A stretch of 63,888 bases of DNA from a virus (taxonomy: Duplodnaviria; Caudoviricetes): positions 1 to 63,888 of the IMG/VR virus record IMGVR_UViG_3300012909_000005. One strand, 5' to 3'. Under the pieces are notes generated by a model. The model worked only from the letters and a program-made list of their open reading frames with translations, was not told where the DNA came from and searched no databases. A program made the translations under genes and the position numbers. Shown here piece by piece: positions 4,280-57,174 of this stretch. Each line of letters opens with the position of its first letter. Within the stretch, counting starts at the first letter, position 1.

Positions 4280-4837
4280 TTACGCGATATATTGGAATGA
4301 GGCATTGCGATCCAACCAATTATAGAGGTTACCGCCTTTTTCTGGGTGCGCAGTTACGATATCGAGATAAAATTGCTTCCTGGACGCCTGTAGCTTCCTG
4401 AAAAAATCGAGGCCATTAACCAAATTGATTGCAGCCAGCGTTTTAGGCCCAAATTTGCCATCTTGGGCTAACCCCAATATCTCCTGCGCATGTTTGATCG
4501 GGACCGAAGGTCCGGCATTCACGCCCCAATCAGCCATGAAATTGGCGATTGATTGGTTGTTTATATTATCCCCTTGTATTACATCCCAGAAAGTAGGCTT
4601 GTAGAATGCATTAACCAAATCTTGCAGGTCCGTGTCAGCCCTCAGGGATTTGGGGAAATTTGATTTGTCCTTATAGGAGTCTATGATAGACCAGCCCATC
4701 CAATGGGGGAAGTTATTACGCGAAATCCCGCGCCAAGTCTCACCTCCTGAGTCATGAATAAATTCAGCCCTCTCGGCACTTACATAGTATCCTTCATTCT
4801 CCATTAGGATAGGTAAGAATAGATTGTAGTCTGCCAT
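4280..4837 (-). CDS. Endolysin, glycoside hydrolase family 108 with PG-binding_3-type C-terminus
   Basis: NEGYY...DSGGETWRGIS; D.GVNAG; DGKFGPKTLAAIN; NWLDR. Confidence 0.9.
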   Translation of the reverse strand: MADYNLFLPILMENEGYYVSAERAEFIHDSGGETWRGISRNNFPHWMGWSIIDSYKDKSNFPKSLRADTDLQDLVNAFYKPTFWDVIQGDNINNQSIANFMADWGVNAGPSVPIKHAQEILGLAQDGKFGPKTLAAINLVNGLDFFRKLQASRKQFYLDIVTAHPEKGGNLYNWLDRNASFQYIA

Positions 4838-4974
4838 TAGCTTTTCATGATTTTATTGATTGAATCCTGATGCTTTTTAAGCAATCCTTGTAAGATACTT
4901 TTTGGCGGGTTGTTTGCCCCAATAAAAAATCCAGCAATGAATGCTATTACAATGGCTCCTAAAATCCAAAACAT
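4837..4974 (-). CDS. Small single-TM protein of lysis cassette
   Basis: Likely start MFWILGAIVIAFIAGFFIG; stop overlaps endolysin start. Confidence 0.6.
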   Translation of the reverse strand: MFWILGAIVIAFIAGFFIGANNPPKSILQGLLKKHQDSINKIMKS

Positions 4975-5015
4975 ATAGATAGCTTTTAGTGTAAAAATAT
5001 AGTTCTCAACCCTGT

Positions 5016-5441
5016 TCAAAACAAGCTCTTTATTTTAGCTAATGTCTCCTGCCTGAATGGATAGACAGCCTGAATGATCATTACAATAGCTGCCCAAAGC
5101 AGGAAGGCATAGAATAAATGATTCTGCCTAAAGTTCCACCAGAACAACAAACAATCAAATATATGATAAAAAAAGAAAATAACCGCTACTAGGAAGAGAG
5201 CGGTACTGTATTGGTAGGACACTTTGGCGAGTACGTAGAACGTGGATATCCACATCAGGGAATCGGTAAAGAACTTAATGTACCATGATACTATCATCTT
5301 CATCTGGAAATGGGGAGACCAAAACCAGTCAACTTCTTTATGATCTACAATGGGCCAGAAATAAGCAATAAGGGCATTTGCATTGTTAAGCAAATGCCCT
5401 ATAACAAGTATCCAAGATATATCGAGGACTATTTTTTTCAT
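5016..5441 (-). CDS. Four-TM aromatic-rich membrane protein
   Basis: Four hydrophobic segments; ATGA-coupled to the Pro-rich peptide gene. Confidence 0.75.
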   Translation of the reverse strand: MKKIVLDISWILVIGHLLNNANALIAYFWPIVDHKEVDWFWSPHFQMKMIVSWYIKFFTDSLMWISTFYVLAKVSYQYSTALFLVAVIFFFYHIFDCLLFWWNFRQNHLFYAFLLWAAIVMIIQAVYPFRQETLAKIKSLF

Positions 5442-5668
5442 GGGTGTCCGGGCGGTGGCGTAGGGGGATTACCTCCCTCATCCTGCGTTTGCGGCCCGTC
5501 GGGAGTTGGTTTTGGCTTGTTCCAAGGATCATCTTTGCCGGGGTCTTCATCTTCCTCTTCTTCATCGTGGCCGTGTTCTCTTGGTTTTGGAGGATTTCGG
5601 CCTGGATCGAACGCGGGACTATGCGGCCCTGTCCCCTTTTTTTCGTTTTTTTTGTGTGGTGTTGACAT
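5438..5668 (-). CDS. 76-aa Pro/acidic-rich disordered peptide with internal repeats
   Basis: ATG 5668 after an A-rich region; DPGRNPPKP / DPGKDDPWNKPKP / EGGNPPTPP. Confidence 0.65.
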   Translation of the reverse strand: MSTPHKKNEKKGTGPHSPAFDPGRNPPKPREHGHDEEEEDEDPGKDDPWNKPKPTPDGPQTQDEGGNPPTPPPGHP

Positions 5669-5924
5669 TTTGCTTGTTTTTAATTTTTTCGATAAGATAA
5701 GCTCCATAGGCCGTTAACAGACCGGAACTAAAAGAAAGAATACAGGTTCCAATATATTTTAAAATATACGCGCCGACAGTAACCAATTCGCTAGGTAGGC
5801 CAGCAAAAAGAAAATGCATAGAGACGTAGAGGCCCATGCAAGAGCCGCTAAAGAAAGCCGTAAACTTTGCCTTAACGCTTTCTTGTATGAATTTCCTAAA
5901 TCTACTCCATATTGATTGTTCCAT
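5619..5924 (-). CDS. Putative holin (two TM, basic C-tail)
   Basis: Two hydrophobic helices, KKRKK tail, lysis cassette position. Confidence 0.55.
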   Translation of the reverse strand: MEQSIWSRFRKFIQESVKAKFTAFFSGSCMGLYVSMHFLFAGLPSELVTVGAYILKYIGTCILSFSSGLLTAYGAYLIEKIKNKQNVNTTQKKRKKGDRAA

Positions 5925-5988
5925 TCTTTTGAGGATAAAGATTTTGCGTAAATTTTTTCTTTACTATACTGCATAAAAATTTATTTAA

Positions 5989-6657
5989 TCAGAATCGTAT
6001 AAGATTATACGTTAATCCCACCCCAATAGTAGGGGCTACTTTACCATTAACCAAAGATATGCCAATTTGAGGCCCCGCGGCCCATCTTTTAGGCTTCACG
6101 TTGATTCGATTATAATCGGAAAACAAGGTACTATATTTTCGGCTGACCTCAAACAGGGAATTATTTGCCTCATTGAACATCTGCGATAAATGCCCAATTA
6201 TGGTGTCCTTTTCTGTCAAAATATGTCTATTTATGGAGGCTAGGGAGTCGTTAGATACCATATATCCCAATACAAGGTCCTTGGCGGTCGTAAATTGGGC
6301 CTTTAGAGAGTCGCATGCGCTCAGGGCTCTAAGGGTATCTTTGGCGTCCTCAGAAGCGTTTAATTCATCAATTAGCCCCTGGATATCGGCTCCCTTATCT
6401 CTTATGTCTACCTTGTATTCCTTTATAACTCCCGATAGGGAATCTTTACTTTTTTGAAGGACGGCATTAACGGCCTTTACGGAATCATAGACATGCTGAA
6501 AACTGGCTAGTTTTGTCTTTACCATTCCCACCACACTATCGACAAAAACTTTATCTTCCGTGTGGTCTGGCCCCGGCTTTTTATCGCACCCTTTTACCCA
6601 TAACCATATAGCGGCGATAACCACAATGGCTATCATATAGGGGATTATCTTGCTCAT
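5989..6657 (-). CDS. Spanin-like protein: N-terminal membrane anchor, coiled coil, C-terminal amphipathic beta-hairpin
   Basis: Hydrophobic N-terminus (possible lipobox VKG-C), heptad region, ends GVGLTYNLIRF. Confidence 0.6.
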   Translation of the reverse strand: MSKIIPYMIAIVVIAAIWLWVKGCDKKPGPDHTEDKVFVDSVVGMVKTKLASFQHVYDSVKAVNAVLQKSKDSLSGVIKEYKVDIRDKGADIQGLIDELNASEDAKDTLRALSACDSLKAQFTTAKDLVLGYMVSNDSLASINRHILTEKDTIIGHLSQMFNEANNSLFEVSRKYSTLFSDYNRINVKPKRWAAGPQIGISLVNGKVAPTIGVGLTYNLIRF

Positions 6658-7061
6658 GACTGCGGTTTTGCTGCGGGAGTGGGGGCGTCCAATGTGCCGG
6701 TTGCCTTATCGCTAATTGTTGTCTTGTAGTCAATGGCGCTGTTTATCCGACTATTAACCGCGCTAAAAAACTTTAATATAATATCGGTGCCCATGTACCC
6801 CACAGTCGCAAATATTGGCCTTACGAATTTAATGGAATCCGGTTTCCAGTTAAGCGCCCACGGCAATAGAGAAAGGAATATCCCAATTACCACCAAGGAG
6901 ATTAATATGGAAATCCATTCATCTTGAAAGTATGACGATGGCTTGAATACAACATTAGCCAAACTGGCCTTTATTTTCAATGCCCGCATACTCAACAGCA
7001 TTGATAGAATTAGCCCTAATATGGCAATACCAAAACAAGTTAAATAAAGCGAAAGTGTCAT
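6654..7061 (-). CDS. Putative holin (three TM)
   Basis: Three hydrophobic segments with FATVGYMG; lysis context. Confidence 0.55.
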   Translation of the reverse strand: MTLSLYLTCFGIAILGLILSMLLSMRALKIKASLANVVFKPSSYFQDEWISILISLVVIGIFLSLLPWALNWKPDSIKFVRPIFATVGYMGTDIILKFFSAVNSRINSAIDYKTTISDKATGTLDAPTPAAKPQS

Positions 7062-7071
7062 GGTGGGGTTT

Positions 7072-7338
7072 TTATTTTTTTAAATAAATTGCTATTCCTA
7101 ATACAAACATACCAATAGCTACAAGTATTTGAATCAGACGCCCAGACTCATCTTTTCTCATAAACTCTTGGCGTTCTTTCTCCATCGATCTTTGTAGGCC
7201 ATTGTGAAGGCTTTTCCATTCATCATTAGTATCACTGTATTTGTCCACCGCCCTCCTGATGGATGCTATTTCTGCATCGAAGTATCTCCTGCTTTCTTCA
7301 ATCTTAACTTCTATATATCGTTCAGTTCTCTCTTTCAT
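7072..7338 (-). CDS. Coiled-coil protein with C-terminal TM (XhlA/holin-like)
   Basis: Charged helix then ILVAIGMFVLGIAIY. Confidence 0.55.
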   Translation of the reverse strand: MKERTERYIEVKIEESRRYFDAEIASIRRAVDKYSDTNDEWKSLHNGLQRSMEKERQEFMRKDESGRLIQILVAIGMFVLGIAIYLKK

Positions 7339-8933
7339 ACTTTTTTAAACGCCCTATATCGGGTAGTTGCTGTACAATTACAAGGGTTTGAGGCATTAAC
7401 TGTAATAGTGGCGCTGTCTGCCCATATTCCTAAGTTATTGTCTGTAATTACTTTTTTAAAAACGTATGTCCCGCTTGTAAGTCCAGTTACCCCGGTTGTA
7501 GAACTCGTTGGAGTTGTAAATGTAGCGGTATTGGGGCCACTTTTCTGCGTCCATTGTGTGCTGCTTATGGTAAATCCGTAGCCACCTTGGATAGCTGCTG
7601 TATCATTGCCTCCAATAGTTGTAGAAGTGGTAGTAATTGTTTTGTTACCCCCACAATGGACGGCGGGAAGAGAAAAATCAGAATATGTGCCGGTTGGTGT
7701 ACAAAGTGGGCAATAGTGTTGCGGCCATAGCCGGTCCAATGTATTTGGATAAAGAGATTCGTCATTACTGGCGATATTGATCGACACGAAGGATTTAGAT
7801 CTACCCCAGACATAAAAACTATCATTAACATCATTAGCCCCATTATAAAAAGTAAAAGAGTTTCCCACGCTGGTAAACCTTCCATTTGTCCAATTTATGT
7901 TTCTGGCGATCATCTTAGGAATGTGGCATGTGCCTCCTTGACATTTGTTTGTTGTCCAACTATATGCGCGGGGGCTGAAATTTAGATATGTATACCGGTT
8001 TACAATTTCCGTGCTATCCCCGATCTCACCTTGCGCTCCATCCCCTCCGCCCCATAATTTCCAGGTGGAATCAAACATGTGATATGTGTTCGTATTTGTT
8101 ACAACAGCTCTAAAAGGCATCGTAGTTCCCCATACTGTTTTCAATGCGAAAGGCTCTGTTCGAGAGTTATTATCCCCCACAAAACCAGATTCGCTACCAG
8201 TCCAATATGGGTTTCCTTGTGTGCTATCACCTCCTATGTAGTCGTGTATTAAATAAATGGCGAAATTGTTTTGAGAGGAGGCTATGTCCACACAAAACGA
8301 ATTACTTGGCAATGTTCTTTGCACAAACGACGTACCCGTTCCCGATGGCCTTTGGTAAACCTCTCCTGTGGTTAATAATATCAGCATGCTAGTTCCGCAT
8401 GCCAGCTTCTTTATCTTCTTACCCCCCGGCGCTGTCCATAACAAGTACGGCTGGAATACCCTATTCCCCGTATTGTCGATCCACTTGTATGAATCCGCAT
8501 TGCCAAAGGCGTATACTTTCGTGCTGTCTAATGAGGTCGAGAAGTATGCGCTAAAGTACGAGTACAGCCATTTGTTATCATTGAACTGAGCGCCGGTGGT
8601 ATCTGTGCTGAACCTTGTACACGCTCCTGTCTGAGTGCCGGGGACTTCAACCCAAGGATAATGATTTTGGTCCAAAATAACCGTCCTATTAAATCCTGGG
8701 CATAAATCATATGCCTTTAGACCACCCACCACGTATGGCATAAACACAACGGACGACCCATTATACAGATAGGCCCTAACTACACTGTCCGGGAAATACA
8801 AGTATGCGCACCTGTATTCAGAAGGCGCGGATTTTACCATTATCTGTGCCGCAAAAAACGGTTTCTTAGCCGGTCTCGTAACGAAAACGAACGAGCTAAC
8901 CGCAAAGGCCAATAGTATTATTCCTCTTATCAT
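7335..8933 (-). CDS. Exported protein: RCC1-like beta-propeller segments plus C-terminal PKD/Ig-like domain
   Basis: Signal MIRGIILLAFAVSSFVF; LWGGGDGAQGEIGD (RCC1-like); TQWTQKSGPNTATFTTPTSSTTGVTGLTSGTYVFK..ITDN (PKD-like). Confidence 0.7.
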   Translation of the reverse strand: MIRGIILLAFAVSSFVFVTRPAKKPFFAAQIMVKSAPSEYRCAYLYFPDSVVRAYLYNGSSVVFMPYVVGGLKAYDLCPGFNRTVILDQNHYPWVEVPGTQTGACTRFSTDTTGAQFNDNKWLYSYFSAYFSTSLDSTKVYAFGNADSYKWIDNTGNRVFQPYLLWTAPGGKKIKKLACGTSMLILLTTGEVYQRPSGTGTSFVQRTLPSNSFCVDIASSQNNFAIYLIHDYIGGDSTQGNPYWTGSESGFVGDNNSRTEPFALKTVWGTTMPFRAVVTNTNTYHMFDSTWKLWGGGDGAQGEIGDSTEIVNRYTYLNFSPRAYSWTTNKCQGGTCHIPKMIARNINWTNGRFTSVGNSFTFYNGANDVNDSFYVWGRSKSFVSINIASNDESLYPNTLDRLWPQHYCPLCTPTGTYSDFSLPAVHCGGNKTITTTSTTIGGNDTAAIQGGYGFTISSTQWTQKSGPNTATFTTPTSSTTGVTGLTSGTYVFKKVITDNNLGIWADSATITVNASNPCNCTATTRYRAFKKV

Positions 8934-9910
8934 GGTTTTTGCCAAATTATTGTACAGCTTGAATCTGAATATTTTATCAAAATCCTAACAGGATAGGGAG
9001 GGATGGTAGTGACTGGTGGAATGGTTACAGGAGGAACGACTACAGGAGGCGCTACATTGGAATTCCTTCTAAGTGCCCACATTTGATTCCATGAATTCTG
9101 CGTGGTTGACCAAACCCGTGCGGTCAATGGGAATGGAGTATTCCAAACATTGGTGCTATGGGTCCCTCCGATTATTTCCTTACTAAAGTATCTACCCGGC
9201 TTGGCGTTCGCATTCATTAGCTTATCATATGCTTGGAAGCCAATGGCATTGTCGCCGGGATCATTAGTCCCTATTACATATAACATTGCCAAACCTCTTT
9301 GCGCACAATAAGCTAAGTTTTTACCGAATGCTGCGAAGTTGTCATTCCAACCACCATTAGCCATTGGCATTAAGCCGGTTATGTATTTCATGGTAAACCC
9401 TGTATCTGCCATTCCTAGTGAAAAGGTAGCCGATCCCCCAGCCGACAATCCGCCTGCCCATACGCAATTTGTATCTATCCTATAGTTCTGTAGACAAAAG
9501 GGGATGGTGTATTTTAACTGTGGTTGCGAATAGGAACAATTCCCTCCTGGTTCACTACACTGAGGGCTGATGACAATGAATTTGATGGTATCCTTGGTAA
9601 CTGAATCAATAGCGTATGGCTTTAGTCCCTGAGCGATAAGATAAGGCAATGATGTATTATTTATTTTAGATATGTCTGTCGATGCCTCCCCCGATCCGTG
9701 AAGGAAGAAAAAAACCGGATACCTTTTAGTCGTCTTCCCGTAGTCGTCAGGAAGATAAATAAGCGCCTGTTTAGTTGGTGCGCCGGGAGCAATGGGTATA
9801 GATATTACTTTTTGATTACCCACTGTGGTCCCGGAGGATTTTGTAAATGTCTGGGCCTGAGATATCAAGCTCCCGGCTAGTAATAAAATAGATATTGTGT
9901 GTTTTATCAT
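8930..9910 (-). CDS. Exported alpha/beta-hydrolase (esterase/peptidase)
   Basis: Signal ...ISQA-Q; YLPDDY...YPVFFFLHGSGE; nucleophile GLSAGG; D and H candidates (GTND, GGTH); Pro-rich C-terminal linker. Confidence 0.85.
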   Translation of the reverse strand: MIKHTISILLLAGSLISQAQTFTKSSGTTVGNQKVISIPIAPGAPTKQALIYLPDDYGKTTKRYPVFFFLHGSGEASTDISKINNTSLPYLIAQGLKPYAIDSVTKDTIKFIVISPQCSEPGGNCSYSQPQLKYTIPFCLQNYRIDTNCVWAGGLSAGGSATFSLGMADTGFTMKYITGLMPMANGGWNDNFAAFGKNLAYCAQRGLAMLYVIGTNDPGDNAIGFQAYDKLMNANAKPGRYFSKEIIGGTHSTNVWNTPFPLTARVWSTTQNSWNQMWALRRNSNVAPPVVVPPVTIPPVTTIPPYPVRILIKYSDSSCTIIWQKP

Positions 9911-9925
9911 GCTTTTTTATTTATC

Positions 9926-12900
9926 TTATTGTTCTCGGTACCAACTATTTGTGGCTTTATAAAATTGATATATGACAGCAGGGCCAACAACCCCCGTTGT
10001 TACTGCGGGGTTTTGCACAATTGTTTGTCCAGAATTTGGCGAAATAGTTAAGAGCGTAACTACCGTTCCTGTAGTAACGGTCCCTCCAAAATGTATTTTA
10101 ACTACTGCACCATCGGGAGGATTGGAAGGTAACGTTAGTGTATAAGTGGCAATAGCTGACGGAGGATCAAATATAACATTCGTCAACCCGTTACTCATAG
10201 TCGTGGAACTGCCAGTACTTATGTTTACTGCCCCTTGTATTATTTGCTGGCTAACAGGGTATTGAATACCTTTAAATATCCAGTTTGTACCGTCAGAATA
10301 GATGTCGTATGTCGCTCCATTTACAAGATACCCGATAGCCAATCCAGTTCCGTTTCCATCCTGAATAGACGGACTTGTCGTCCATTTAAATGTGGCCGTG
10401 TTATAGCTAGTCAATGTTAATACTCTGCCAGTAAAGCTAGATGCAGTTGGCAGTGTAGCTACCCTGTCTGCGGTAATAGTAACTAACTTCACAAGACTCT
10501 CTGTCCCGACTGTATAATTAGCATCTGTGGCTGTGCCTATAGTAAAAGTCTGACCTCCTGTAATGTTCAATTGGCCGTTCAAGGTAAGGGCAGGTCCTAA
10601 TGTTTGTGATCCAGATGCCTTTATCATCCCTGGATTAGTAGGATCAGCGGGGCCAAAGGTTATTGTGTTGCTGGATATAGATGCCCCATTTGCTATAGAA
10701 CTACCAGAGAATGCACCTACTGTGGTTACTCCTGACCCGCCGCCGCTTGGCTGCAATATTTTAACCAGCGTATCTATTCCAGATGCCGAAGTCCTTATAG
10801 CTAATACCGAATCCGATGCCGTTCCTTGGGCTAATGCAGCAGACGGAAGAGTAAACCCAGTCATGTGTCTCCATCCCCAAGAACCAGCGCTATTGACTTG
10901 AACAGAGCCGTATAATGTAGAAGTATTTTCAAGGGTTAATTGTGCTTGGGTAGTGGACAATGCCTGTATCAGACCATTGCTATTATCTGTTTTTGATGCT
11001 GCCACAATAAGATTACCGGCTGTACTTATAGACATAGCTTGGGAGGACGACCCGGCAGATCCGTGCGATGTCTGAAAGTCTATTGCCCCCAAGCTATAGG
11101 CATTCTTTAGTTCTGTCATACCGGATACGTTGGGCGCAATGCTGCCAAATTGATTTGAGGCGCTACCGGCAAGTACACGGGCACCATATTTCAGCTCAAT
11201 ATCCCCAACGATGGGGGTGCCATAAGTTGGGTTGCCATTATCGGTACTTATCCATCCCCCTGACGTAATACTAAATGATTGCACTTGCGTCCCAGTAGAA
11301 CCCCCAGCCGGAGTATAAAAGGCCCATGCGTTAGTAGATCCACCATTGGAAAAATAATTCCTAAATTCCCCTATCAATCCGGTTGTAATGCCAAATGATG
11401 CCGTGTTGGTTGTTCCGGCGGCTGAGCTTACCCATCTATTCCCAGCCTTAACAATAAGGTCACCCGCCGCTGCCGCGCCTGTTCCCGTTGCCACTAGCGG
11501 AGACGAGCCAAGGAGCGTCCATAGATTAGTGGTGTCATAATTTATATTTGCTGCTCCGTAGAAACCAGACCCACTCTTCACTTGTATGTTTTGATTGGAG
11601 CCGCCAGGAGACCCTGCACCAGGGGGCACAACTGCCGTTGTATCCGTCCATACTACTGCGGTCCCATTCCAGATGGGTCGCATGTTTGCATGTGCGGGTG
11701 TGGCCGTTGCTGTCGCCACGCCTGCGACTCCACCATATATCATCTGCCCAGCAGCAGACATCGGGTTCGCAAACCCTCCGCTGCTGGAAAGGAGATCATA
11801 GTCTGTAGACCCATCATGATACCACAAATGGCCAGTTTCCGCAGCCAATGCCCCCTGTCCCATGGAAGTAGGCTTGGTTCCTGCTGGCAGCACAATGGAT
11901 GGAGTGGCAGATGTTGGTGTAAAGAAAGTAGATGATCCGTTCGAATTTAAGGTAAGGGCTGTATTTGTGGACGCATTTACGCGAAAAGTTAATCCGGTAG
12001 AGGCCGTTGTCTGATCGATAAAACCGCTTAACAATCTAGTAGATCCAGCCCATAAAGCTCCTGTAACACTGGCTATTCCAGCCACATTAAACTGCGCGCT
12101 ATTAGTTTGCACCCCACTTCCCACTACTAAATAGCTGCCTTGAAATTGAAGGTTTAAAGGCAGCGGAGTACCGGTTGTTCTATTGTATGCGGCAAGATAT
12201 CCTTGATGGCTCGTTGGGTTGAACTGCATTTCCGTAGCCTCGCCAGATAGCGGCATACCAGCGATACCAGCAGCGGGTATAGTATTAGTAACCCTAAGGA
12301 ATCCAGGCGCTAACCATCCTGCTGTAATTCCTTGGCTAGTATTACCAATGAAAGGTTGTGCTTGTAATGGGCTGTTCATTAGAAAGCAATTAGTACATCC
12401 TTTAAGACGACTAATTGAATCAATAACAACGGAGGTGTAGTTAGAGGTGTTGGATGGTATTGTAAGATGCAATCTCGCCGAATCGAGGTCAGTAATGCCA
12501 TTCACGGCCAGTTGCTGCCCAATGTTCTTAATGTCGTACCCAAGTTGGGCTATAGCGTAATTGGCCTCATATCCATATGCCGGATCATTTTCATGGATTG
12601 AGTCAGCACTAAGATGTAGTGCTGGATTACTATAGGCGACAAAGTTGGCATACTGATCAATAAACCCGATGCTATACTCAATGGACAGTTTTTTAAGGGC
12701 ATCATCGAATAGTACGCACCTTGCGGCATTTGCCGCCGCAGGCAGAGAGTATACTACAGAATCGGTATTCCATGCACTTTGCCCTTCTGGTCCATCAGAA
12801 GAAAGATAAATTAAGGATAATGGCCATCCTTTCCGTATAGCCGCATTCAGCCATAATCTAAGAGCAGATTTATAGGCCACAGTATCGTAATTTGTTGCGG

Positions 12901-15244
12901 AGTAAGCGATGTCATTTTTAAACCATGATTCGATTAAATACCTATGCTTCCCGGCAACATATGTCGGTATTTTGGTGGTATCTCCGAGTCCCGTAGTAAC
13001 CGCACCGAAGGGGTTGAAAGGACTCTGATTAATAATCATTTGAGAATTAACCCCAAGGTTCTTTTCAATGGCCCCCAAACGCTGAGACACCTTCGTACTC
13101 CACCTCATATTAGCAGAGGACGCCCCAACTCCTACTACAGTCGAAGGTCCGAAGAAAACAATTGTATCGATGCCCGGAGGGCCATTACTCATTCCTATGT
13201 GTAAGCTATCTGCTTTTAATAAGCCACCTTTGTGGTAAAGCGAAAATCCGGCATGAAGGATGCTATCCGAATTTGCAAGAGTTCTGCCCGTTGTTAAAGT
13301 TTGTTGAAAGGTTTGTGAACCGCCGCCGCCAGATGTTGAATCCACCCAGATTATGGCTCCGCTGGCCCCGCTAGTTAATTTCATCCCCGCGTGTGCCGCC
13401 ACTGCAAGGCGACCATAAGTACCTCCTACCTGATAGATCATATCTCCATTAGTGGTCATGGGGTTGGTAAATGTTCCTCCTGATGCATTAACTGTTATAG
13501 AGCTATCCGAATTTTTAGTTAAGGTGATATTTGTCCCCGCAACTAAGTTATTTAGATAGAACGTATCGTTTGATATGTTCCCCAATTGGACCCCTGTTCC
13601 TGAAACTCTGTTTTTTACGAATAGGGTGTCTGGCGCTAATGCCGCTGGATTTCCTGACCCATCCCATCCTTGAATATAATTAGCTGTGTTCGTAGCTTGG
13701 GTAGCCAATGTAACTTTCCCGAACGCTGGGGCCGCACTTGATCCTGTGAAATTGCCAAAAACTGTGTTTGCAGCAGCATTACTAAGAGTGAAGACTGCTG
13801 AAGCGCTTGTAGTAGGATTGGTAACAACCGTTGTGAACAAAGGAGATAGATTCCCTATAGCTACATTGGTAACCGTCCCCGAACCGCCCCCGCCCGGAGG
13901 TGCAGCCCAAGTTCCGTCCGCCCTCAAAAAGTTAGTCGTCCCACCACCTGATGCAGGAGCTAACCCTTGCAAAGATGTTGTGAAAACATTTAGATCAGCC
14001 GTTACTTGTGTTGGTGTTAGGTAAGACGGAGTAGTCCCAGATAATTTTAAATACCCCGTACCACTCAGTGATGCTTGTTTACCAGCGAGATCAGATACAA
14101 GGTTAGTAACTTGGCTTTCTCCTATTTGTATCGCCACTGAGGACGCGGCCGTTGTTAACCCTTTCGCGTTGGTAGTAAATTGAGCTACCGAACTAGCACT
14201 TCCAAATGTCCCCACATTGCTATTGACGGTTGCAAGGGTGAATGGAACAATTCCAGATCCCGATGCTGTCCCGTCCCCTGTCAATCCAGTTATTCCGGTT
14301 CCTGTACCATTTGGCGATAAATACCATTTATGATTCGTGCTATCAAATGCCAACACATAGCCATTTCTATTTGAACTTGTATCTACGAATAGATGTTTGA
14401 TTGAATCCGCACTCCCATTTCCCCCTACGCCAGCGGGATATTGAGGGATATTAAGAACATTTCCTATGAAAGTGGCCGGTCCGGAAGTTCCAGCGGTAGT
14501 CAAAGTAATTGCGCCTTGCTTATTGTTAAAGGTATTCCAGTCGATTGAAGATATTTTGCCTGTTGTCCCGGGTCCGCCGACCGGAATATTAAAAGTAAAA
14601 TTGCTCCCTAATGCTGCTGGGGTCCCAGACACATTTACATCAGTCCCGGATACTCCCAATGTAATTCCTATAGAAGAATTATTGAGGGCAGAGTTGGGAA
14701 TATTTATAAGCGTGTTATTAGATCCTGAAATAGTCTTGTTTGTAAGAGTGACTGCCGCGCTATTTTTTGTGGCATCAGAAGTATTGTCTACGTTATTGAT
14801 CAGCAGATTTGCTTTGGCAGTCGAAATACTTAGAAGATCAGAAAGATTGTTCGCCGCCAATAAGAATCCGCTGGCAACTACCGTATCTGTAGGAAATTTT
14901 ACTAAGTTAGAATCGGCTAATCCATTTCTAAACCAATATAAATTTCGGATACCCCCGATAAATACCCCACTCCCATTTAATGTACCCCCTTGGTGAACGC
15001 AAATGAGAGCCGCCCCAAACCTACTAGCTTGCGAAGTGAAGTTGGCTAACACTTCAGACGTATTTTGAAAATCTCTGTATATGAAAAGAGAAGTATCGTA
15101 ATACATTGTCCGCCCATTCAGGGGGGTTTTTAAAGTTGGGAATATTGCATCGCTGGCTATTATGTGCTTTATGGGTTGATATCCCTGAGAAAAAATAAGG
15201 GTGCTAATAAAACAAAGCGCCAATATAGATAGTAGTTTTTTCAT
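9926..15244 (-). CDS. 1772-aa tail-fibre/adhesin-like protein with N-terminal signal peptide and internal SGNH-hydrolase-like domain
   Basis: Fibre-type motifs NVDNTSDATK, DWNTFNNKQ, VTNLVSDLAGK, FLRADGTWAAP, NPMTTNGDMIY; G/S/T-rich; FFGPST...ND...DSIH; N-terminus MKKLLSILALCFISTLIFS-Q. Confidence 0.8.
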   Translation of the reverse strand: MKKLLSILALCFISTLIFSQGYQPIKHIIASDAIFPTLKTPLNGRTMYYDTSLFIYRDFQNTSEVLANFTSQASRFGAALICVHQGGTLNGSGVFIGGIRNLYWFRNGLADSNLVKFPTDTVVASGFLLAANNLSDLLSISTAKANLLINNVDNTSDATKNSAAVTLTNKTISGSNNTLINIPNSALNNSSIGITLGVSGTDVNVSGTPAALGSNFTFNIPVGGPGTTGKISSIDWNTFNNKQGAITLTTAGTSGPATFIGNVLNIPQYPAGVGGNGSADSIKHLFVDTSSNRNGYVLAFDSTNHKWYLSPNGTGTGITGLTGDGTASGSGIVPFTLATVNSNVGTFGSASSVAQFTTNAKGLTTAASSVAIQIGESQVTNLVSDLAGKQASLSGTGYLKLSGTTPSYLTPTQVTADLNVFTTSLQGLAPASGGGTTNFLRADGTWAAPPGGGGSGTVTNVAIGNLSPLFTTVVTNPTTSASAVFTLSNAAANTVFGNFTGSSAAPAFGKVTLATQATNTANYIQGWDGSGNPAALAPDTLFVKNRVSGTGVQLGNISNDTFYLNNLVAGTNITLTKNSDSSITVNASGGTFTNPMTTNGDMIYQVGGTYGRLAVAAHAGMKLTSGASGAIIWVDSTSGGGGSQTFQQTLTTGRTLANSDSILHAGFSLYHKGGLLKADSLHIGMSNGPPGIDTIVFFGPSTVVGVGASSANMRWSTKVSQRLGAIEKNLGVNSQMIINQSPFNPFGAVTTGLGDTTKIPTYVAGKHRYLIESWFKNDIAYSATNYDTVAYKSALRLWLNAAIRKGWPLSLIYLSSDGPEGQSAWNTDSVVYSLPAAANAARCVLFDDALKKLSIEYSIGFIDQYANFVAYSNPALHLSADSIHENDPAYGYEANYAIAQLGYDIKNIGQQLAVNGITDLDSARLHLTIPSNTSNYTSVVIDSISRLKGCTNCFLMNSPLQAQPFIGNTSQGITAGWLAPGFLRVTNTIPAAGIAGMPLSGEATEMQFNPTSHQGYLAAYNRTTGTPLPLNLQFQGSYLVVGSGVQTNSAQFNVAGIASVTGALWAGSTRLLSGFIDQTTASTGLTFRVNASTNTALTLNSNGSSTFFTPTSATPSIVLPAGTKPTSMGQGALAAETGHLWYHDGSTDYDLLSSSGGFANPMSAAGQMIYGGVAGVATATATPAHANMRPIWNGTAVVWTDTTAVVPPGAGSPGGSNQNIQVKSGSGFYGAANINYDTTNLWTLLGSSPLVATGTGAAAAGDLIVKAGNRWVSSAAGTTNTASFGITTGLIGEFRNYFSNGGSTNAWAFYTPAGGSTGTQVQSFSITSGGWISTDNGNPTYGTPIVGDIELKYGARVLAGSASNQFGSIAPNVSGMTELKNAYSLGAIDFQTSHGSAGSSSQAMSISTAGNLIVAASKTDNSNGLIQALSTTQAQLTLENTSTLYGSVQVNSAGSWGWRHMTGFTLPSAALAQGTASDSVLAIRTSASGIDTLVKILQPSGGGSGVTTVGAFSGSSIANGASISSNTITFGPADPTNPGMIKASGSQTLGPALTLNGQLNITGGQTFTIGTATDANYTVGTESLVKLVTITADRVATLPTASSFTGRVLTLTSYNTATFKWTTSPSIQDGNGTGLAIGYLVNGATYDIYSDGTNWIFKGIQYPVSQQIIQGAVNISTGSSTTMSNGLTNVIFDPPSAIATYTLTLPSNPPDGAVVKIHFGGTVTTGTVVTLLTISPNSGQTIVQNPAVTTGVVGPAVIYQFYKATNSWYREQ

Positions 15245-16110
15245 CAGTTGAATGTAATGAGGTTTGAGTTATTTACCGTAAAGGCATTACCCGAACGGGA
15301 GAATATGTATTTCCAAGTTGTTATAGTCGTTGCATTAAAGGCAAATCCTGGGATGCCAGCTGCGTCAATAGGAGGGTTATTATATCCCGTCTTGGTCGGC
15401 TCTGTGGACGGATACTTTATGACAATGAATTCATCAACTACCGGACCGGTAAATTGAACAGATAAAGGCTGCCCTGTGGTTATCGGGAACGTAAATTGGA
15501 ATGGAACTGCATCCGTGCCGCCCTGCAATGCCGCGCTATAATCTGCACCTCCCGCATAAGCATACCCAATAATATTGGCCGTTACGGTTAGGGTAGCCAT
15601 CCCGCTAACGGTAGTTCCCGCTACACTTGTCGCCTTGAAATAAAACGTCTTCCCGGAGTCCCCGGACTGGGCATTATAAAAAACATAGATATTCGAAGTT
15701 TGCCCTACTATTGGATTCCCAAGATAGTCATACCATTGCCCAACATACAGCAAAGAACTTGTTACCACTACCATAAAAGTAGCATTCGATCCTTGATTTA
15801 CGGACTGATTCGCCGGTCCTGTAATTACAGGAGGCCCGGCAGCCAAGTTATTAAGAATGTTCTGCGCCTGACTTAGGTATTTACCACAAAGGGATAGAAC
15901 ATATTCAGCCGTTTTTCGGAGGGTTGATCCGCCCGGGTTTAAAGTGTACATGTTCTCCAATAAATACCCTTCCATGTAGAGAAGTCCGGGCAAGTTCTCG
16001 TTTATGGAACCACTTCTAAGAGCCGTTTTAGATGCAATATCATTCCCTGCGAGATATTGGCTTATCTGCGCGAAGGTTATGATTTGTTGTATGGTAAAGA
16101 GACTAGCCAT
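15244..16110 (-). CDS. Virion protein with central immunoglobulin (I-set-like) domain
   Basis: PPVITGPANQSVNQGSNATF...QW...DSGKTFYFKATSVAGTTVS..ATLTV; no signal peptide. Confidence 0.7.
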   Translation of the reverse strand: MASLFTIQQIITFAQISQYLAGNDIASKTALRSGSINENLPGLLYMEGYLLENMYTLNPGGSTLRKTAEYVLSLCGKYLSQAQNILNNLAAGPPVITGPANQSVNQGSNATFMVVVTSSLLYVGQWYDYLGNPIVGQTSNIYVFYNAQSGDSGKTFYFKATSVAGTTVSGMATLTVTANIIGYAYAGGADYSAALQGGTDAVPFQFTFPITTGQPLSVQFTGPVVDEFIVIKYPSTEPTKTGYNNPPIDAAGIPGFAFNATTITTWKYIFSRSGNAFTVNNSNLITFN

Positions 16111-16610
16111 TAGAAGTACTTATTTTGGTTAGCGATAAGGGCATTATATCTCAGGATACAACTTTGGGCGGCTGAAACTGACTTCCCTATAGATATAGCA
16201 TTTATGGCGCTTTGTATCTCAGTGAATACCTCATACTTGTTTTGCATGAAGTTTTGATCGTTTCGGATACTGGGATCGGCTATTTGATCTTGGGTTAGTC
16301 CTTCTAAAAACTGAAGCCCATATTGGTTAAATGAAGCTATGATACTGGTAGTGTATAATACAACGCCTACAGAGTTCAACCAGTTGAGTGTGATGGTAAG
16401 GGCGGCATCTTGGGTCAATGGGCTGACGGTGATTGATGCCCCTGGAACAGGAAAATCATAAGGAGAATTACCCAAGGAAGTGCTATCCGTTTGGGTAAAG
16501 ATTATCTGCCGGTCAGTAATATCTATATCCGACCCCGTTGAAGTATCGGTAACTAATATGGACGACGGGTCCGAAGTCCCAATGGCGGTAAAACTAGGAA
16601 TAATAGGCAT
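16110..16610 (-). CDS. Putative tail/fibre-attachment structural protein
   Basis: Beta-rich N-half, helical C-half; coupled to downstream gene; tail region. Confidence 0.55.
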   Translation of the reverse strand: MPIIPSFTAIGTSDPSSILVTDTSTGSDIDITDRQIIFTQTDSTSLGNSPYDFPVPGASITVSPLTQDAALTITLNWLNSVGVVLYTTSIIASFNQYGLQFLEGLTQDQIADPSIRNDQNFMQNKYEVFTEIQSAINAISIGKSVSAAQSCILRYNALIANQNKYF

Positions 16611-25695: not shown

Positions 25696-26116
25696 AAATC
25701 AGTCGGGTTATATTGTTATCTTGTCCTTCAACTTGCATTCCCATTTTCAGAAGAAACTTAATGGCCCTCTTATTGGTATTCCATAAAAAACAGGCAAAGC
25801 AACTTTGAAATTCCTTTCTGATCAGAGTAAAGAATTGCCTCAGAAAATGCCTGGTTCTCATAGAAGGGGAAATTGAAAAGCTAATTAATAGGCCGCCTCT
25901 TTTCACGTAGTACCCCACCAAAACACCCTTCTCAAAAATGCCCATATAACTCAATTGGTCGAATTCAGATAGCTTTCTTAGAATGTCTTTTTGGACATCA
26001 TCAATGGTCTCAACCTTTACGTTCGGGTCGTATAGGGATAGGATAGATTTATCTCCTGTGAAGGATATCTTAACCGCCGCCTTTAATTGGTCATATGTAA
26101 TGGGTTTAGAGGTCAT
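25688..26116 (-). CDS. GNAT-like acetyltransferase (T7 gp13-like position)
   Basis: SFSISPSMR...NTNKRAIKFLLKMGM resembles GNAT motifs; directly after the nozzle gene. Confidence 0.6.
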   Translation of the reverse strand: MTSKPITYDQLKAAVKISFTGDKSILSLYDPNVKVETIDDVQKDILRKLSEFDQLSYMGIFEKGVLVGYYVKRGGLLISFSISPSMRTRHFLRQFFTLIRKEFQSCFACFLWNTNKRAIKFLLKMGMQVEGQDNNITRLIYG

Positions 26117-39303: not shown

Positions 39304-39321
39304 TAATGGGAAATTGTTTCC

Positions 39322-39351
39322 CAAATATAATGATTATGCCAAACAGACAAA
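39322..39351 (-). promoter_or_regulatory. Bacteroidota promoter TTTG-N18-TATATTTG upstream of portal
   Basis: CAAATATA at 39322-39329 and CAAA at 39348-39351 on +. Confidence 0.6.
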
Positions 39352-57122: not shown

Positions 57123-57142
57123 GAGTAAATAGGATTGATGAC

Positions 57143-57174
57143 CAAATGTAAAGAGAGATAAAATAACTTCCAAA
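57143..57174 (-). promoter_or_regulatory. Bacteroidota promoter TTTG-N20-TACATTTG driving sigma operon
   Basis: CAAATGTA 57143-57150 and CAAA 57171-57174 on +. Confidence 0.75.

What the first reader, a model, noticed from the sequence alone, without database searches (positions are those of the whole stretch)
7335..15244. Tail-fibre-like protein and two neighbours carry Sec signal peptides: candidate extracytoplasmic fibre assembly system
Seen: the 1772-aa protein sits where a podovirus fibre belongs, between the tail/ejection genes and lysis. It is built from typical fibre motifs (NVDNTSDATK, DWNTFNNKQ, FLRADGTWAAP, two NPM..G.MIY modules), yet starts MKKLLSILALCFISTLIFS-Q. The next two genes start MIKHTISILLLAGSLISQA-Q and MIRGIILLAFAVSSFVF. 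All three contain paired Cys (CTNC, CSEPGGNC, CQGGTC, CPLC, CNC), and I see no type IX secretion C-terminal domain. Known: virion proteins normally fold and assemble in the cytoplasm, and Gln directly after the SPase I site is the Bacteroidota Q-rule. Inference: the fibre/adhesin set is exported to the periplasm, matured there, and attaches to particles only during or after lysis. Alternatively it decorates the infected cell envelope.
Basis: partly seen in the sequence, partly recalled or inferred. Interest (0 to 1): 0.9.

Follow-up and report, generated by a model that had tools for sequence, protein, structure and literature searches.

The report
Phage tail fibres with secretion signals
A virus of Bacteroidota bacteria makes its tail-fibre-like protein and two neighbouring enzymes with bacterial export signals, a feature shared by hundreds of related fibre genes, which suggests these parts mature outside the cytoplasm where virus particles are normally built.

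Summary
Three consecutive minus-strand genes (9926-15244, 8930-9910, 7335-8933) sit between tail or ejection genes and a lysis cassette in an incomplete podovirus contig related to Bacteroidota phages.

- **Leaders:** all three begin with Sec-type leaders. The fibre and the CE1-like esterase have canonical signal peptidase I sites with Gln at +1. The propeller/PKD protein has an atypical, possibly uncleaved, leader.
- **Family-wide pattern:** the fibre's N-terminal domain defines a family of 626 clusters. In 142 of the best 150, the domain starts directly after a 17-34 residue leader that ends [AGS]-Q.
- **Extended leaders:** 64 leaders are extended, and 51 of those carry a conserved D-K-Y-type motif.
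- **Leaderless counterparts:** other phages and prophages carry the same domain beginning with Met at the Gln position. Virion fibres of crAss001 and phi38:1 also lack leaders.
- **No type IX secretion domain** was found.

Export is strongly suggested but not shown, and SignalP was not available. My best reading (0.45) is that the fibre matures in the periplasm and joins the particle at lysis. The main rival (0.33) is that the products act on the cell envelope and never enter the virion. My literature searches found no description of this arrangement.

The parts
9926..15244 (-). Gene for the 1772-aa tail-fibre-like pre-protein (P0001)
   Evidence: ORF and translation. 436 homologues were found, with mosaic C-terminal parts. 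The ATG overlaps the upstream stop as TGATG.
15188..15244 (-). Sec / signal peptidase I type leader, aa 1-19 (MKK, hydrophobic core, I-F-S, then Gln20)
   Evidence: Sequence. AF2 models aa 2-17 as a helix. Gln20 is invariant in 40 aligned homologues. All 142 leader-bearing members among the best 150 have a small residue followed by Gln at this junction.
14840..15187 (-). Conserved N-terminal domain of the mature fibre, aa 20-135. It consists of a conserved but poorly modelled N-terminal peptide (aa 21-43) followed by a small alpha/beta domain (aa 45-120).
   Evidence: Alignments A2 and A4. A profile search found 626 clusters. AF2 model. No PDB fold match, best E 2.7.
13325..14839 (-). Fibre-repeat region, aa 136-640, carrying NVDNTSDATK, DWNTFNNKQ, FLRADGTWAAP and the first NPM..G.MIY module
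   Evidence: Sequence. In tblastn, aa 144-239 match annotated minor tail proteins of mycobacteriophages at 49-68% identity over short stretches.
12575..13153 (-). SGNH/GDSL-like esterase region, aa 698-890 (weak match)
   Evidence: PF13472 covers the whole profile but is below cut-off: E 0.019, 15.9 bits against 32.9. Many homologues carry precomputed PF13472.
9929..12574 (-). C-terminal beta-rich region, aa 891-1772, with the second NPM..G.MIY module. Presumed receptor-binding part.
   Evidence: Sequence. No Pfam family up to E 5 and no type IX sorting domain.
8930..9910 (-). Gene for a 326-aa secreted-type CE1-like alpha/beta-hydrolase esterase (P0002). Layout: leader aa 1-19 (nt 9854-9910), core aa 44-257 (nt 9140-9781), G-L-S156-A-G nucleophile motif, Pro-rich linker, conserved 20-aa C-terminal tail.
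   Evidence: PDB sequence hits to feruloyl or acetyl-xylan esterase domains, 1jjf E 5.7e-9. NCBIfam weak hits around aa 140-168. 15 of 17 close homologues keep leader plus Gln. Cys118 and Cys149 are conserved in 17/17 and 18/18.
7335..8933 (-). Gene for a 532-aa protein (P0003, ATG at 8933). Layout: N-terminal hydrophobic leader or anchor (nt 8880-8933), RCC1-like beta-propeller (nt 7914-8546), K319L-like PKD domain (nt 7398-7652), Cys-rich tail.
   Evidence: Pfam PF22352 E 5.1e-9 (above cut-off). PF25390 scores 27.6 bits (below the cut-off of 150). ATGA overlap with the esterase stop. Homologues: 14 of 17 have a hydrophobic leader and 8 have a canonical junction before Gln.
15244..16110 (-). 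Leaderless 288-aa protein (P0123) always found directly upstream of the fibre. Layout: three-helix N-terminal part, Ig-like domain, beta C-terminal domain. Candidate docking partner; binding is not shown.
   Evidence: Homologues are adjacent to the fibre in L002-L009. AF2 mean pLDDT 84.7. Foldseek returns Ig hits only. phrog_3995 'tail protein' E 1.6e-4. The C-terminal domain recurs in L011, L012 and L020.
16110..16610 (-). Leaderless 166-aa protein (P0124), conserved upstream of P0123
   Evidence: Homologues in L002-L009. No family found. The Atlas gives only weak Ig/PKD-like leads.
4280..7338 (-). Lysis cassette directly downstream. Contents: small membrane proteins (7072-7338, 6654-7061, 5619-5924, 4837-5019), a 222-aa protein with an N-terminal membrane segment followed by Cys (5989-6657, DUF6808), and a leaderless GH108 + PG_binding_3 endolysin (4280-4837).
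   Evidence: Hydrophobicity scan. Pfam. Homologues lie in the same position in related loci.

Best explanation
The three genes form the distal receptor-recognition and receptor-processing cassette of a Bacteroidota podovirus, and their products are made as Sec pre-proteins.

**Proposed course of events**
1. The fibre and the esterase are exported through SecYEG.
2. Host signal peptidase I cuts each of them before Gln.
3. The host glutaminyl cyclase converts the new N-terminal Gln to pyroglutamate.
4. The propeller/PKD protein is exported too, and may stay anchored in the inner membrane.
5. The fibre folds in the periplasm.
6. The fibre's conserved N-terminal peptide and domain dock onto the cytoplasmically built particle only when holin lesions and lysis mix the two compartments. 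The leaderless proteins encoded just upstream are the candidate docking partners.
7. The SGNH-like region of the fibre, the CE1-like esterase and the propeller/PKD protein bind or de-acylate surface glycans of the host.

**What is shown**
- The genes and their starts.
- Leader anatomy that obeys the -3/-1 rule and the Q-rule.
- Family-wide conservation of the leader.
- Leaderless counterparts in other phages.
- Synteny with tail and lysis genes.
- Absence of a type IX sorting domain.
- Esterase-like homology.

**What is inferred**
- Actual export and cleavage.
- Membership of the virion.
- The docking partner.
- Loading at lysis.

I put export itself at about 0.8. The whole chain, including virion attachment, is at 0.45.
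For: **Leader anatomy**
- Fibre: MKK, a 13-residue hydrophobic core, then I-F-S before Gln.
- Esterase: S-Q-A before Gln.

**Family-wide conservation of the leader**
- A profile of the mature N-domain finds 626 clusters.
- In 142 of the best 150, 17-34 residues precede the domain.
- All 142 have Gln at the junction. Position -1 is A 57, G 55, S 27, N 2, T 1. Position -3 is G/A/S/V/T/I/L in 141.
- The n-region net charge is at least +1 in all 142, and the mean hydropathy of the core is 2.54.
- Gln20 is invariant in 40 aligned homologues.
- 64 leaders are extended, and 51 of these carry [DN][KNR]Y in the n-region. A conserved motif argues that the extension is translated and functional.

**Leaderless versions of the same domain**
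- They start with Met at the Gln position in L011, L013, L017, L018 and L019.
- The leader is therefore an add-on to a domain that elsewhere sits in ordinary tail modules.

**Fibre identity**
- The N-terminal domain is conserved while C-terminal parts are mosaic: PF13472, PF03629, PF12708, PF19264, PF26696 and collagen.
- The gene order (giant protein, 420-aa protein, 166-aa protein, 288-aa protein, fibre, further leader-bearing genes, lysis) recurs in related viral loci: the 166-aa, 288-aa, fibre core in all of L002-L009, the upstream genes in most of them.
- crAss001 has the same fibre-cluster-then-lysis order.
- No other fibre-like gene is seen in the structural block of the window.

**Candidate docking peptide**
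- The most conserved stretch of the family, directly after Gln (QTYNPS.H.V.N....AQ..P.D.RS), is modelled with pLDDT below 50 in the monomer.
- This is what one expects of a docking peptide.
- In crAss001 the N-terminal 26 residues of fibre gp22 dock in the tail hub (PMC10172136, passages read).

**Cassette-wide leaders**
- In 9 of the 10 leader-type loci that have downstream sequence, at least one following gene also has a leader ending before Gln.

**Host and lysis type**
- The host phylum fits the Q-rule: the nearest cultured phages infect Flavobacterium, Cellulophaga and Maribacter.
- The N-domain occurs in Chitinophagaceae, Sphingobacteriaceae and Adhaeribacter genomes.
- The Q-rule is specific to Bacteroidota signal peptidase I substrates (PMC10653852, passages read).
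- The endolysin has no leader, which fits a holin-dependent lysis that opens the inner membrane first.
Against: - **No direct data.** There is no evidence that any of these proteins is exported, cleaved or present in virions.
- **No trained predictor.** SignalP or a similar tool could not be run. The leader calls rest on my own heuristic plus comparison.
- **Biased sample.** The best 150 of 626 are the members most like a profile built mainly from leader-bearing sequences, so the 142 of 150 may overstate the share.
- **Known virion fibres lack leaders.** All experimentally studied relatives have leaderless fibres: crAss001 gp22-gp26 and phi38:1 gp85 and gp87. I know of no tailed phage that adds fibres from the periplasm.
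- **No obvious need for export.** The fibre is Cys-poor at 0.23%, so oxidative folding is not an evident reason.
- **L020.** The P0123-like protein itself carries a leader there. This fits a wholly extracytoplasmic complex that need not touch the particle.
- **L016.** A leaderless 634-aa protein follows the leader-bearing fibre, so some of these phages may have an ordinary cytoplasmic receptor-binding protein as well.
- **P0123 fold.** P0123 shows no fold likeness to the crAss001 hub proteins among Foldseek's top hits, which are all Ig domains.
- **Weak SGNH match.** It is below Pfam's cut-off.
Confidence: 0.45

Rival explanations
1. The proteins are exported but are not virion parts. They act in the periplasm or envelope of the infected cell. 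Possible roles:
- Destroying or masking the receptor from within. This would block superinfection and stop progeny from sticking to debris.
- De-O-acetylating peptidoglycan so that the muramidase-type endolysin can cut it.
- Decorating the envelope.

On this reading the particle's own receptor binding is done by leaderless proteins such as P0123 or the muzzle protein.
For: - The same leader evidence as for the best explanation applies.
- The esterase and the propeller protein have remoter bacterial homologues that are secreted enzymes carrying type IX sorting domains (PF18962). They look like captured host-type secreted proteins.
- In L020 the P0123-like protein is leader-bearing too.
- L016 has a leaderless 634-aa protein next to the leader-bearing fibre.
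- Porphyromonas gingivalis prophages are reported to carry Q-rule genes of unknown function, thought to modify the outer membrane (PMC10367356, passages read).
- No type IX domain is present, so the products should stay in the periplasm.
- The endolysin is GH108, a muramidase-type family. That O-acetylation blocks such enzymes is recalled knowledge, not from a call.
Against: - A conserved N-terminal domain joined to rapidly swapped C-terminal parts is the usual pattern of virion-anchored receptor-binding proteins.
- The same N-domain occurs without a leader at the end of ordinary tail modules (L013, L018, L019).
- The window shows no other fibre-like gene in its structural block, although the contig is only 61% complete.
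- A 1772-aa repeat-rich fibre is an odd form for a periplasmic enzyme.
Confidence: 0.33
2. The leader is not used for export of the bulk protein. The fibre would assemble in the cytoplasm as usual, and the hydrophobic N-terminus would serve another purpose. Possible purposes:
- A transient tether to the inner face of the membrane.
- An assembly or chaperone handle removed by a phage or host protease.
- A membrane-active segment used during infection.
For: - Known virion fibres of relatives are cytoplasmic.
- The conserved n-region motif of the extended leaders (51 of 64) hints at recognition by something more specific than Sec.
- For P. gingivalis phages, predicted signal peptides on major capsid proteins were interpreted as likely cut by the prohead protease (PMC10367356, passage read).
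- The third protein's leader looks more like an anchor.
Against: - A K/R-rich n-region before the hydrophobic core predicts N-in, C-out topology by the positive-inside rule. That rule is established knowledge, not from a call.
- Every one of the 142 junctions obeys the signal peptidase I -3/-1 rule and has Gln at +1. A non-Sec role does not explain this.
- The Q-rule is tied to periplasmic cyclisation (PMC10653852).
- No phage-encoded protease, signal peptidase or cyclase was seen in the 39 window ORFs scanned with Pfam.
Confidence: 0.12
3. Artefact: wrong start codons, or chance hydrophobic N-termini on genes that are not expressed as annotated.
For: - Gene calls were made mechanically.
- A few homologues in the lists begin inside or after the leader: P0032, P0036, P0130, P0141, P0201.
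Against: - The starts overlap upstream stops as TGATG and ATGA.
- There is no in-frame ATG before residue 47 of the fibre.
- The leader is conserved in hundreds of independent clusters.
- The conserved protein-level motif in extended leaders shows that they are translated.
Confidence: 0.03

Closest known systems
Tail fibres of Bacteroides phage crAss001 (gp22-gp26, with gp22 docking in the THA/THB hub)
   Same: - A podovirus of a Bacteroidota host.
- The fibre cluster lies directly before the lysis genes.
- The fibre is held by its extreme N-terminus (PMC10172136, passages read).
- The muzzle-type gene is shared only weakly: PF25729 scores 22.8 bits, below the cut-off of 27.
   Different: - gp22-gp26 all start without a leader.
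- No sequence or fold match was found between the window's N-domain or P0123 and solved crAss001 chains.
- In crAss001 the hub genes lie elsewhere in the module.
Cellulophaga phage phi38:1 (Pervagoviridae) and other cultured Flavobacteriia podoviruses
   Same: - They are the nearest cultured relatives by portal, at about 24% identity.
- They share the order of portal, capsid, 1324-aa muzzle-like protein and giant protein.
   Different: - Their fibres gp85 and gp87 lie upstream of the terminase.
- Those fibres share a leaderless N-terminus, MARIKNT.
- They have no homologue of the window's N-domain by tblastn.
Esterase-bearing tail fibres and tailspikes, such as the polysaccharide-deacetylating fibres of N4-like phages
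   Same: - A fibre with an SGNH-type esterase region and a modular build.
- A deacetylating fibre is described for Pectobacterium phage Possum (PMC9569702; only the search listing and start of the abstract were seen).
   Different: - I know of no Sec leader on those proteins.
- Here the esterase match is below Pfam's cut-off.
- Here a second, separate secreted-type CE1-like esterase follows the fibre.
Q-rule signal-peptide genes of Porphyromonas gingivalis prophages
   Same: Phage genes in Bacteroidota whose predicted signal peptidase I cleavage exposes Gln (PMC10367356, passages; PMC10653852, passages).
   Different: - Those are five genes of unknown function, read as modifiers of the host's outer membrane and not described as tail fibres.
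- Their list is in a supplement that I could not open.
Coat proteins of filamentous phages, and extended signal peptides of very large secreted proteins (autotransporters)
   Same: - Filamentous phages use the host's secretion machinery to assemble. I saw only the start of the abstract of PMC4823517. That their coat proteins carry cleaved leaders is recalled knowledge.
- Extended leaders with a conserved n-region on very large exported proteins resemble the 24-34 residue leaders here. This comparison is recalled and was not tested.
   Different: - Filamentous phages assemble at the membrane and have no tail.
- The n-region motif here (R/K-x-L-x-D-K-Y-R/L-P) was not compared with the autotransporter motif.

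Membership tests
Sec / signal peptidase I signal peptide obeying the Bacteroidota Q-rule | Positively charged n-region followed by an uncharged hydrophobic core of about 10-15 residues | tested here: met
   - Fibre: MKK plus LLSILALCFISTL.
- Esterase: MIKH plus TISILLLAGSLI.
- Third protein: MIRG plus IILLAFAVSSFVFV.
- Family: net n-region charge of at least +1 in 142 of 142, mean core hydropathy 2.54.
Sec / signal peptidase I signal peptide obeying the Bacteroidota Q-rule | Small or neutral residues at -3 and -1, and Gln at +1 | tested here: met
   - Fibre: I-F-S then Q.
- Esterase: S-Q-A then Q.
- Family: 142 of 142.
- The third protein does not meet this cleanly. Its nearest A-A-Q lies 12 residues after the core, behind TRPAKKP.
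Sec / signal peptidase I signal peptide obeying the Bacteroidota Q-rule | Positive call by a trained predictor (SignalP, DeepTMHMM) | not testable with these tools
   No such predictor was available. Only my own heuristic was used.
Sec / signal peptidase I signal peptide obeying the Bacteroidota Q-rule | Actual export, cleavage and pyroglutamate formation | not testable with these tools
   This needs reporter fusions, fractionation or N-terminal proteomics.
Phage tail fibre / receptor-binding protein | Gene located in the tail module of a phage genome | tested here: met
   The gene lies between muzzle-like or giant-protein genes and the lysis cassette. The same order is seen in L002-L009 and in crAss001.
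Phage tail fibre / receptor-binding protein | Conserved N-terminal anchor domain joined to exchangeable C-terminal binding or enzymatic parts, plus fibre repeat motifs | tested here: met
   - 69 of the 120 listed proteins share the N-domain, with differing C-terminal Pfam families.
- aa 144-239 match annotated minor tail proteins.
- The Atlas feature hits to tail-fibre clusters score 0.86, below the 0.9 bar, so they are only a lead.
Phage tail fibre / receptor-binding protein | Presence in purified virions; trimeric fibre structure | not testable with these tools
   No cultured member was found. The full protein exceeds the folding limit, and no trimer was modelled.
SGNH/GDSL hydrolase (PF13472) | Profile match above the curated cut-off with the catalytic blocks present | tested here: not met
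   15.9 bits against the cut-off of 32.9, although the match covers profile positions 2-176 of 178. By eye, a G-P-S block, a K-N-D block and a D-S-I-H block are present. Homologues carry precomputed PF13472. I therefore call the region SGNH-like only.
Carbohydrate esterase family 1-type alpha/beta hydrolase (feruloyl / acetyl-xylan esterase, PHB-depolymerase-like) | Sequence similarity to solved members and a G-x-S-x-G nucleophile elbow | tested here: met
   - 1jjf E 5.7e-9 over aa 44-257, and 16 further chains.
- G-L-S156-A-G motif.
- NCBIfam hits are far below their cut-offs and Pfam found nothing at E 0.01.
- The acid and His of the triad were not mapped.
Type IX secretion cargo | C-terminal sorting domain (PF18962 / TIGR04183-type) | tested here: not met
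   No hit in any of the three proteins in Pfam or NCBIfam. Remoter bacterial homologues of the esterase and of the propeller protein do carry PF18962.
Crassvirales-type virion module | Muzzle protein and crAss-type portal, capsid and ring genes | tested here: inconclusive
   - PF25729 scores 22.8 bits, below the cut-off of 27.
- The portal is nearest to Pervagoviridae and to Cellulophaga phi13:2-type phages, at 22-25% identity.
- No PDB sequence match for the muzzle-like protein.

The most novel reading that the evidence does not exclude
A large, so far uncultured clade of Bacteroidota podoviruses exports its receptor-binding fibres and accessory glycan esterases through the host Sec pathway. 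On this reading:
- The leader is cut by signal peptidase I and the new end is capped as pyroglutamate.
- The fibres fold in the periplasm.
- They are loaded onto finished, cytoplasmically built particles only in the moments when holin lesions open the inner membrane.

This would be the first extracytoplasmic assembly step known for a tailed phage. The conserved n-region motif of the extended leaders would then be a phage-specific control of when or how fast the giant fibre is exported.
Probability: 0.4. Interest if true: 0.95.

Novelty: new variant of a known kind. Interest (0 to 1): 0.8.

Why it matters
Tailed-phage particles are taken to be built entirely in the cytoplasm. One paper even used the absence of signal peptides as an argument for the phage origin of a protein (PMC6199706, passage read).

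A family of at least 626 sequence clusters of fibre-like proteins with a conserved Sec leader contradicts that habit, and leaderless counterparts of the same domain exist elsewhere. Either reading would be new:
- a new assembly route, with fibres added from the periplasm; or
- a new class of phage-made periplasmic factors built from fibre parts.

The practical consequences are:
- Annotation pipelines that drop signal-peptide proteins from virion sets would miss these receptor-binding proteins.
- Host-range prediction for Bacteroidota phages would be affected.
- The leader and its n-region motif are candidate export tags for Bacteroidota.

Tried and rejected
**Complex prediction.** I submitted P0123 (alignment A3) with the mature N-domain (alignment A4). 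The verdict was 'no answer' (score 0.01, mark 0.32). It counts neither for nor against binding.

**Fold of the leader plus N-domain.** The AF2 model had mean pLDDT 68.5. Foldseek against the PDB found nothing, best E 2.7.

**Fold of P0123.** The AF2 model had mean pLDDT 84.7. Foldseek gave only generic Ig-domain hits, so the idea that it is a crAss001-type hub protein has no support.

**PDB sequence searches that found nothing useful.**
- The fibre.
- Its SGNH-like region.
- P0123, only chance-level hits.
- P0124.
- The muzzle-like protein.

**Nucleotide search.** A search of 10 kb of the window against cultured phages found no match.

**Family scans.** PHROGs and Pfam gave nothing for the fibre.

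**Leader versus mature identity.** Pairwise identity came out alike, at 0.30 for the leader and 0.32 for the first 40 mature residues, compared without gaps. This is not informative and I did not use it.

**Twin-arginine (Tat) signal.** I considered and rejected it. The extended leaders lack an RR motif directly before the hydrophobic core (by eye).

**Phage-encoded helpers.** I looked for a signal peptidase, a disulfide oxidoreductase or a glutaminyl cyclase. None was found among 39 window ORFs scanned with Pfam.

**Atlas look-ups.** They gave only sub-threshold leads.

**Literature.**
- Searches.
- One search was useless because the word start 'crass' matched unrelated words.
- One search found no paper holding both 'Crassvirales' and 'signal peptide'.
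- None of the listed titles or abstract starts, and none of the passages I read, describes a Sec leader on a tail fibre of a tailed phage.
- Passages read: PMC6199706, PMC8143477, PMC10653852, PMC10367356, PMC10172136, PMC5723332 and bioRxiv 10.64898/2026.10.24.761521.
- Supplements were closed. Supplementary Data 4 of PMC10367356 lists the Q-rule phage genes and may bear on this.
- I did not read the virion proteomics behind the 'structural protein' labels of the Cellulophaga phages.

Full report
**What the window is.** The window is a whole IMG/VR virus record of 63,888 bases. It is linear and estimated 61% complete. Nearly all genes from about 3.5 kb to 57 kb run on the minus strand.
- Terminase large subunit: 39995-42073.
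- Portal: 36886-39324.
- Capsid-type structural protein: 33652-35079.
- 1325-aa muzzle-like protein: 26113-30090. It matches phrog_14478, and weakly PF25729 at 22.8 bits against a cut-off of 27.
- After the muzzle-like gene come a 1766-aa protein, a 420-aa protein, a 166-aa protein (P0124) and a 288-aa protein (P0123). The three genes of the finding follow, then a lysis cassette ending in a GH108 + PG_binding_3 endolysin at 4280-4837.

The nearest cultured phages by portal, at 22-25% identity, all infect Flavobacteriia. Of the 85 matching records, 68 are Flavobacterium phages, 15 Cellulophaga, 1 Maribacter and 1 an unnamed Caudoviricetes record. No nucleotide match to any cultured phage was found.

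**Check of the observation.** The three ORFs and every quoted motif are present.
- The fibre's ATG overlaps the stop of P0123 (TGATG).
- The third gene's ATG at 8933 overlaps the esterase's stop (ATGA).
- The esterase starts 15 bases after the fibre's stop.
- These couplings, and the lack of an in-frame Met before residue 47 of the fibre, argue against a start downstream of the hydrophobic segment.
- Among 57 non-nested window ORFs of at least 100 aa, my crude heuristic finds 8 loosely leader-like N-termini. Only 2 have an AXA-type site followed by Gln, and they are the fibre and the esterase. The third gene is one of the 8.
- The other leader-like ORFs include lysis-cassette membrane proteins and a lipoprotein-like ORF at 50825-51205.
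- None of the head, portal, muzzle or giant proteins has such an N-terminus.

**What the three proteins are.**
- *Fibre.* It has no Pfam or PHROG family at E 0.01 and no PDB relative by sequence.
  - It has 436 homologues of 975-2171 aa. Many lie on contigs of 20-86 kb.
  - Their C-terminal parts carry differing precomputed families: PF13472, PF00657, PF03629, PF12708, PF19264, PF26696 and PF01391.
  - Residues 698-890 match PF13472 over the whole profile but below the cut-off.
  - Residues 144-239 match annotated minor tail proteins of mycobacteriophages.
- *Second protein.* It resembles solved feruloyl and acetyl-xylan esterase domains (1jjf E 5.7e-9). It has a G-L-S-A-G motif, a Pro-rich linker and a short conserved C-terminal tail.
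- *Third protein.* It combines an RCC1-like propeller, below Pfam's cut-off, with a K319L-like PKD domain, above the cut-off.
- *Secretion domain.* None of the three has a type IX secretion sorting domain. Remoter bacterial homologues of the second and third proteins do.

**The leader is a family trait.**
- Of the 120 proteins listed (the query included), 69 share the fibre's mature N-domain. In most of these the BLAST match begins at or within two residues of the residue aligned with Gln20.
- 93 of the 120 are leader-like by my heuristic, 88 of them with Gln at +1.
- The 27 that are not leader-like mostly share only fibre repeats.
- Gln20 is invariant in an alignment of 40 homologues.
- A profile of the mature domain (12 sequences, alignment A4) finds 626 clusters at E up to 0.001 in 1.84 billion representatives. 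Of these, 582 are at E up to 1e-10.
- In the best 150, 142 have 17-34 residues ahead of the domain and 8 have fewer than 12.
- All 142 have Gln at the junction after A, G, S, N or T. Position -3 is G/A/S/V/T/I/L in 141. All have a net positive n-region.
- The leaders fall into two classes. 78 are short, of the MKK type. 64 are extended, and 51 of those carry [DN][KNR]Y within the motif R/K-x-L-x-D-K-Y-R/L-P just before the hydrophobic core.
- This sample is biased towards sequences like the profile, so I cannot give the share in the whole family.
- The esterase's 17 close homologues keep leader plus Gln in 15 cases. The other 2 begin inside or after it.
- Of 17 homologues of the third protein, 14 have a hydrophobic leader and 8 have a canonical junction before Gln. 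The closest ones, like the window's, have a charged insert between the core and the old A-A-Q site. They may therefore be anchors rather than cleaved.

**Leaderless counterparts and context.** Twelve viral loci and five loci in Bacteroidota genomes hold the N-domain.
- In L002-L009 the order P0124-like, P0123-like, leader-bearing fibre is conserved.
- In 9 of the 10 leader-type loci with downstream sequence, one or more following genes also have a leader ending before Gln. L004 is the exception and L008 ends too early.
- The domain begins with Met at the Gln position, with no leader, in these loci:
  - L013, which has a tape-measure-type tail module and a recombinase;
  - L018 and L019, two prophage-like regions of Adhaeribacter aquaticus DSM 16391;
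  - L011 and L017, where it is a short separate protein followed by a leader-bearing long fibre.
- In L020 the P0123-like protein itself has a leader.
- P0123's C-terminal domain recurs next to N-domain genes in L011, L012 and L020.
- Fibres known or annotated as virion parts in cultured relatives have no leaders: crAss001 gp22-gp26 and phi38:1 gp85 and gp87.
- crAss001 shows the same order of fibre cluster followed by lysis genes.

**How it most likely works.** The leaders have the full anatomy of signal peptidase I substrates, and they carry the Gln that marks such substrates in Bacteroidota only (PMC10653852). Export to the periplasm is therefore the simplest reading, at about 0.8. Three observations make me favour a true fibre that joins the particle late:
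- The N-domain behaves as a virion anchor elsewhere.
- The window has no other fibre-like gene in its structural block.
- The stretch directly after the cleavage site is the most conserved part of the family yet is modelled as disordered, as a docking peptide would be.

The joining would happen when holin lesions and lysis mix cytoplasm and periplasm. The leaderless endolysin fits a holin-dependent lysis. This last step is inference. The esterase, the SGNH-like region and the propeller/PKD protein would act on acetylated glycans of the host surface.

**Rivals.**
- The main rival is that the products never join virions but act on the envelope from within. It is supported by L020, by the leaderless protein after the fibre in L016, by the host-like ancestry of the two accessory proteins, and by the precedent of Q-rule genes in P. 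gingivalis prophages (PMC10367356).
- A non-export role of the leader is hard to square with 142 of 142 canonical junctions.
- An annotation artefact is excluded for practical purposes.

**Comparison and novelty.** The parts are known kinds: a modular fibre, glycan esterases and a Sec leader. The combination, a conserved Sec leader on the fibre family of a tailed-phage lineage, was not found in seven literature searches or in the passages I read. One paper treats absence of signal peptides as typical of phage proteins (PMC6199706). I therefore rate it a new variant of a known kind. The bolder reading of periplasmic maturation and loading at lysis remains open at about 0.4.

**Limits.**
- No trained signal-peptide predictor was available.
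- There are no expression or proteome data and no cultured member.
- The complex prediction gave no verdict.

Noticed in passing
window 56108-56632 and 56601-57173 (minus strand): Two adjacent, overlapping genes for ECF-type sigma-70 family factors (PF04542, PF08281, PF07638) lie at the head of the long minus-strand gene block. They may drive phage middle or late transcription.
   Followed up: no
window 46536-47963 (minus strand): A 475-aa protein combines DUF5672 with a glycosyltransferase family 9 (heptosyltransferase-like) domain, near a methyltransferase-like ORF at 45330-45977. It is possibly a phage-encoded surface-glycan modification.
   Followed up: no
window 50825-51205 (minus strand): A 126-aa ORF starts with a lipoprotein-type leader (hydrophobic core, V-A-C, then SSNK). 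It is a candidate phage lipoprotein outside the structural block.
   Followed up: no
window 5989-6657 (minus strand) and homologues in L002, L005, L006: A 222-aa protein has an N-terminal membrane segment followed by a conserved Cys and K-P-G-P-D-H, and a C-terminal DUF6808. It sits among holin-like genes and may be a spanin-type lysis protein.
   Followed up: partly
proteins P0011, P0026, P0034, P0046, P0047 and P0005, P0010, P0030, P0042, P0065, P0079; L011 10662-14288; L017 8551-11229: Two further N-terminal domain types occur on fibre homologues. One begins APAPSGF.SPYSTGYYRIGW and the other TFTPPRSS..ITVQDSR. Most of these homologues also sit directly after a leader ending before Gln (P0005 begins inside the leader). 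Export signals are therefore not tied to one anchor domain.
   Followed up: partly
L011 10007-10648 and L017 about 8001-8549: In two loci the N-domain is a short, leaderless, separate protein (collagen-like G-x-y repeats follow it in L011). A leader-bearing long fibre comes directly after it. This looks like a split between a cytoplasmic adaptor and an exported distal part.
   Followed up: partly
esterase homologues P0126-P0142; window 8930-8995: After a Pro-rich linker, the phage esterases end in one of two conserved tails of about 20 residues: Y-P-V-R-I..K.SDSSC..I..KP or K-I-G-Y-D-D-G. The function is unknown; it may be a docking strand.
   Followed up: no
window 51225-51563 and 57377-57952: There is a small protein consisting of a DnaA C-terminal helix-turn-helix domain (E 8e-21), and a NinG-like protein on the plus strand.
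   Followed up: no
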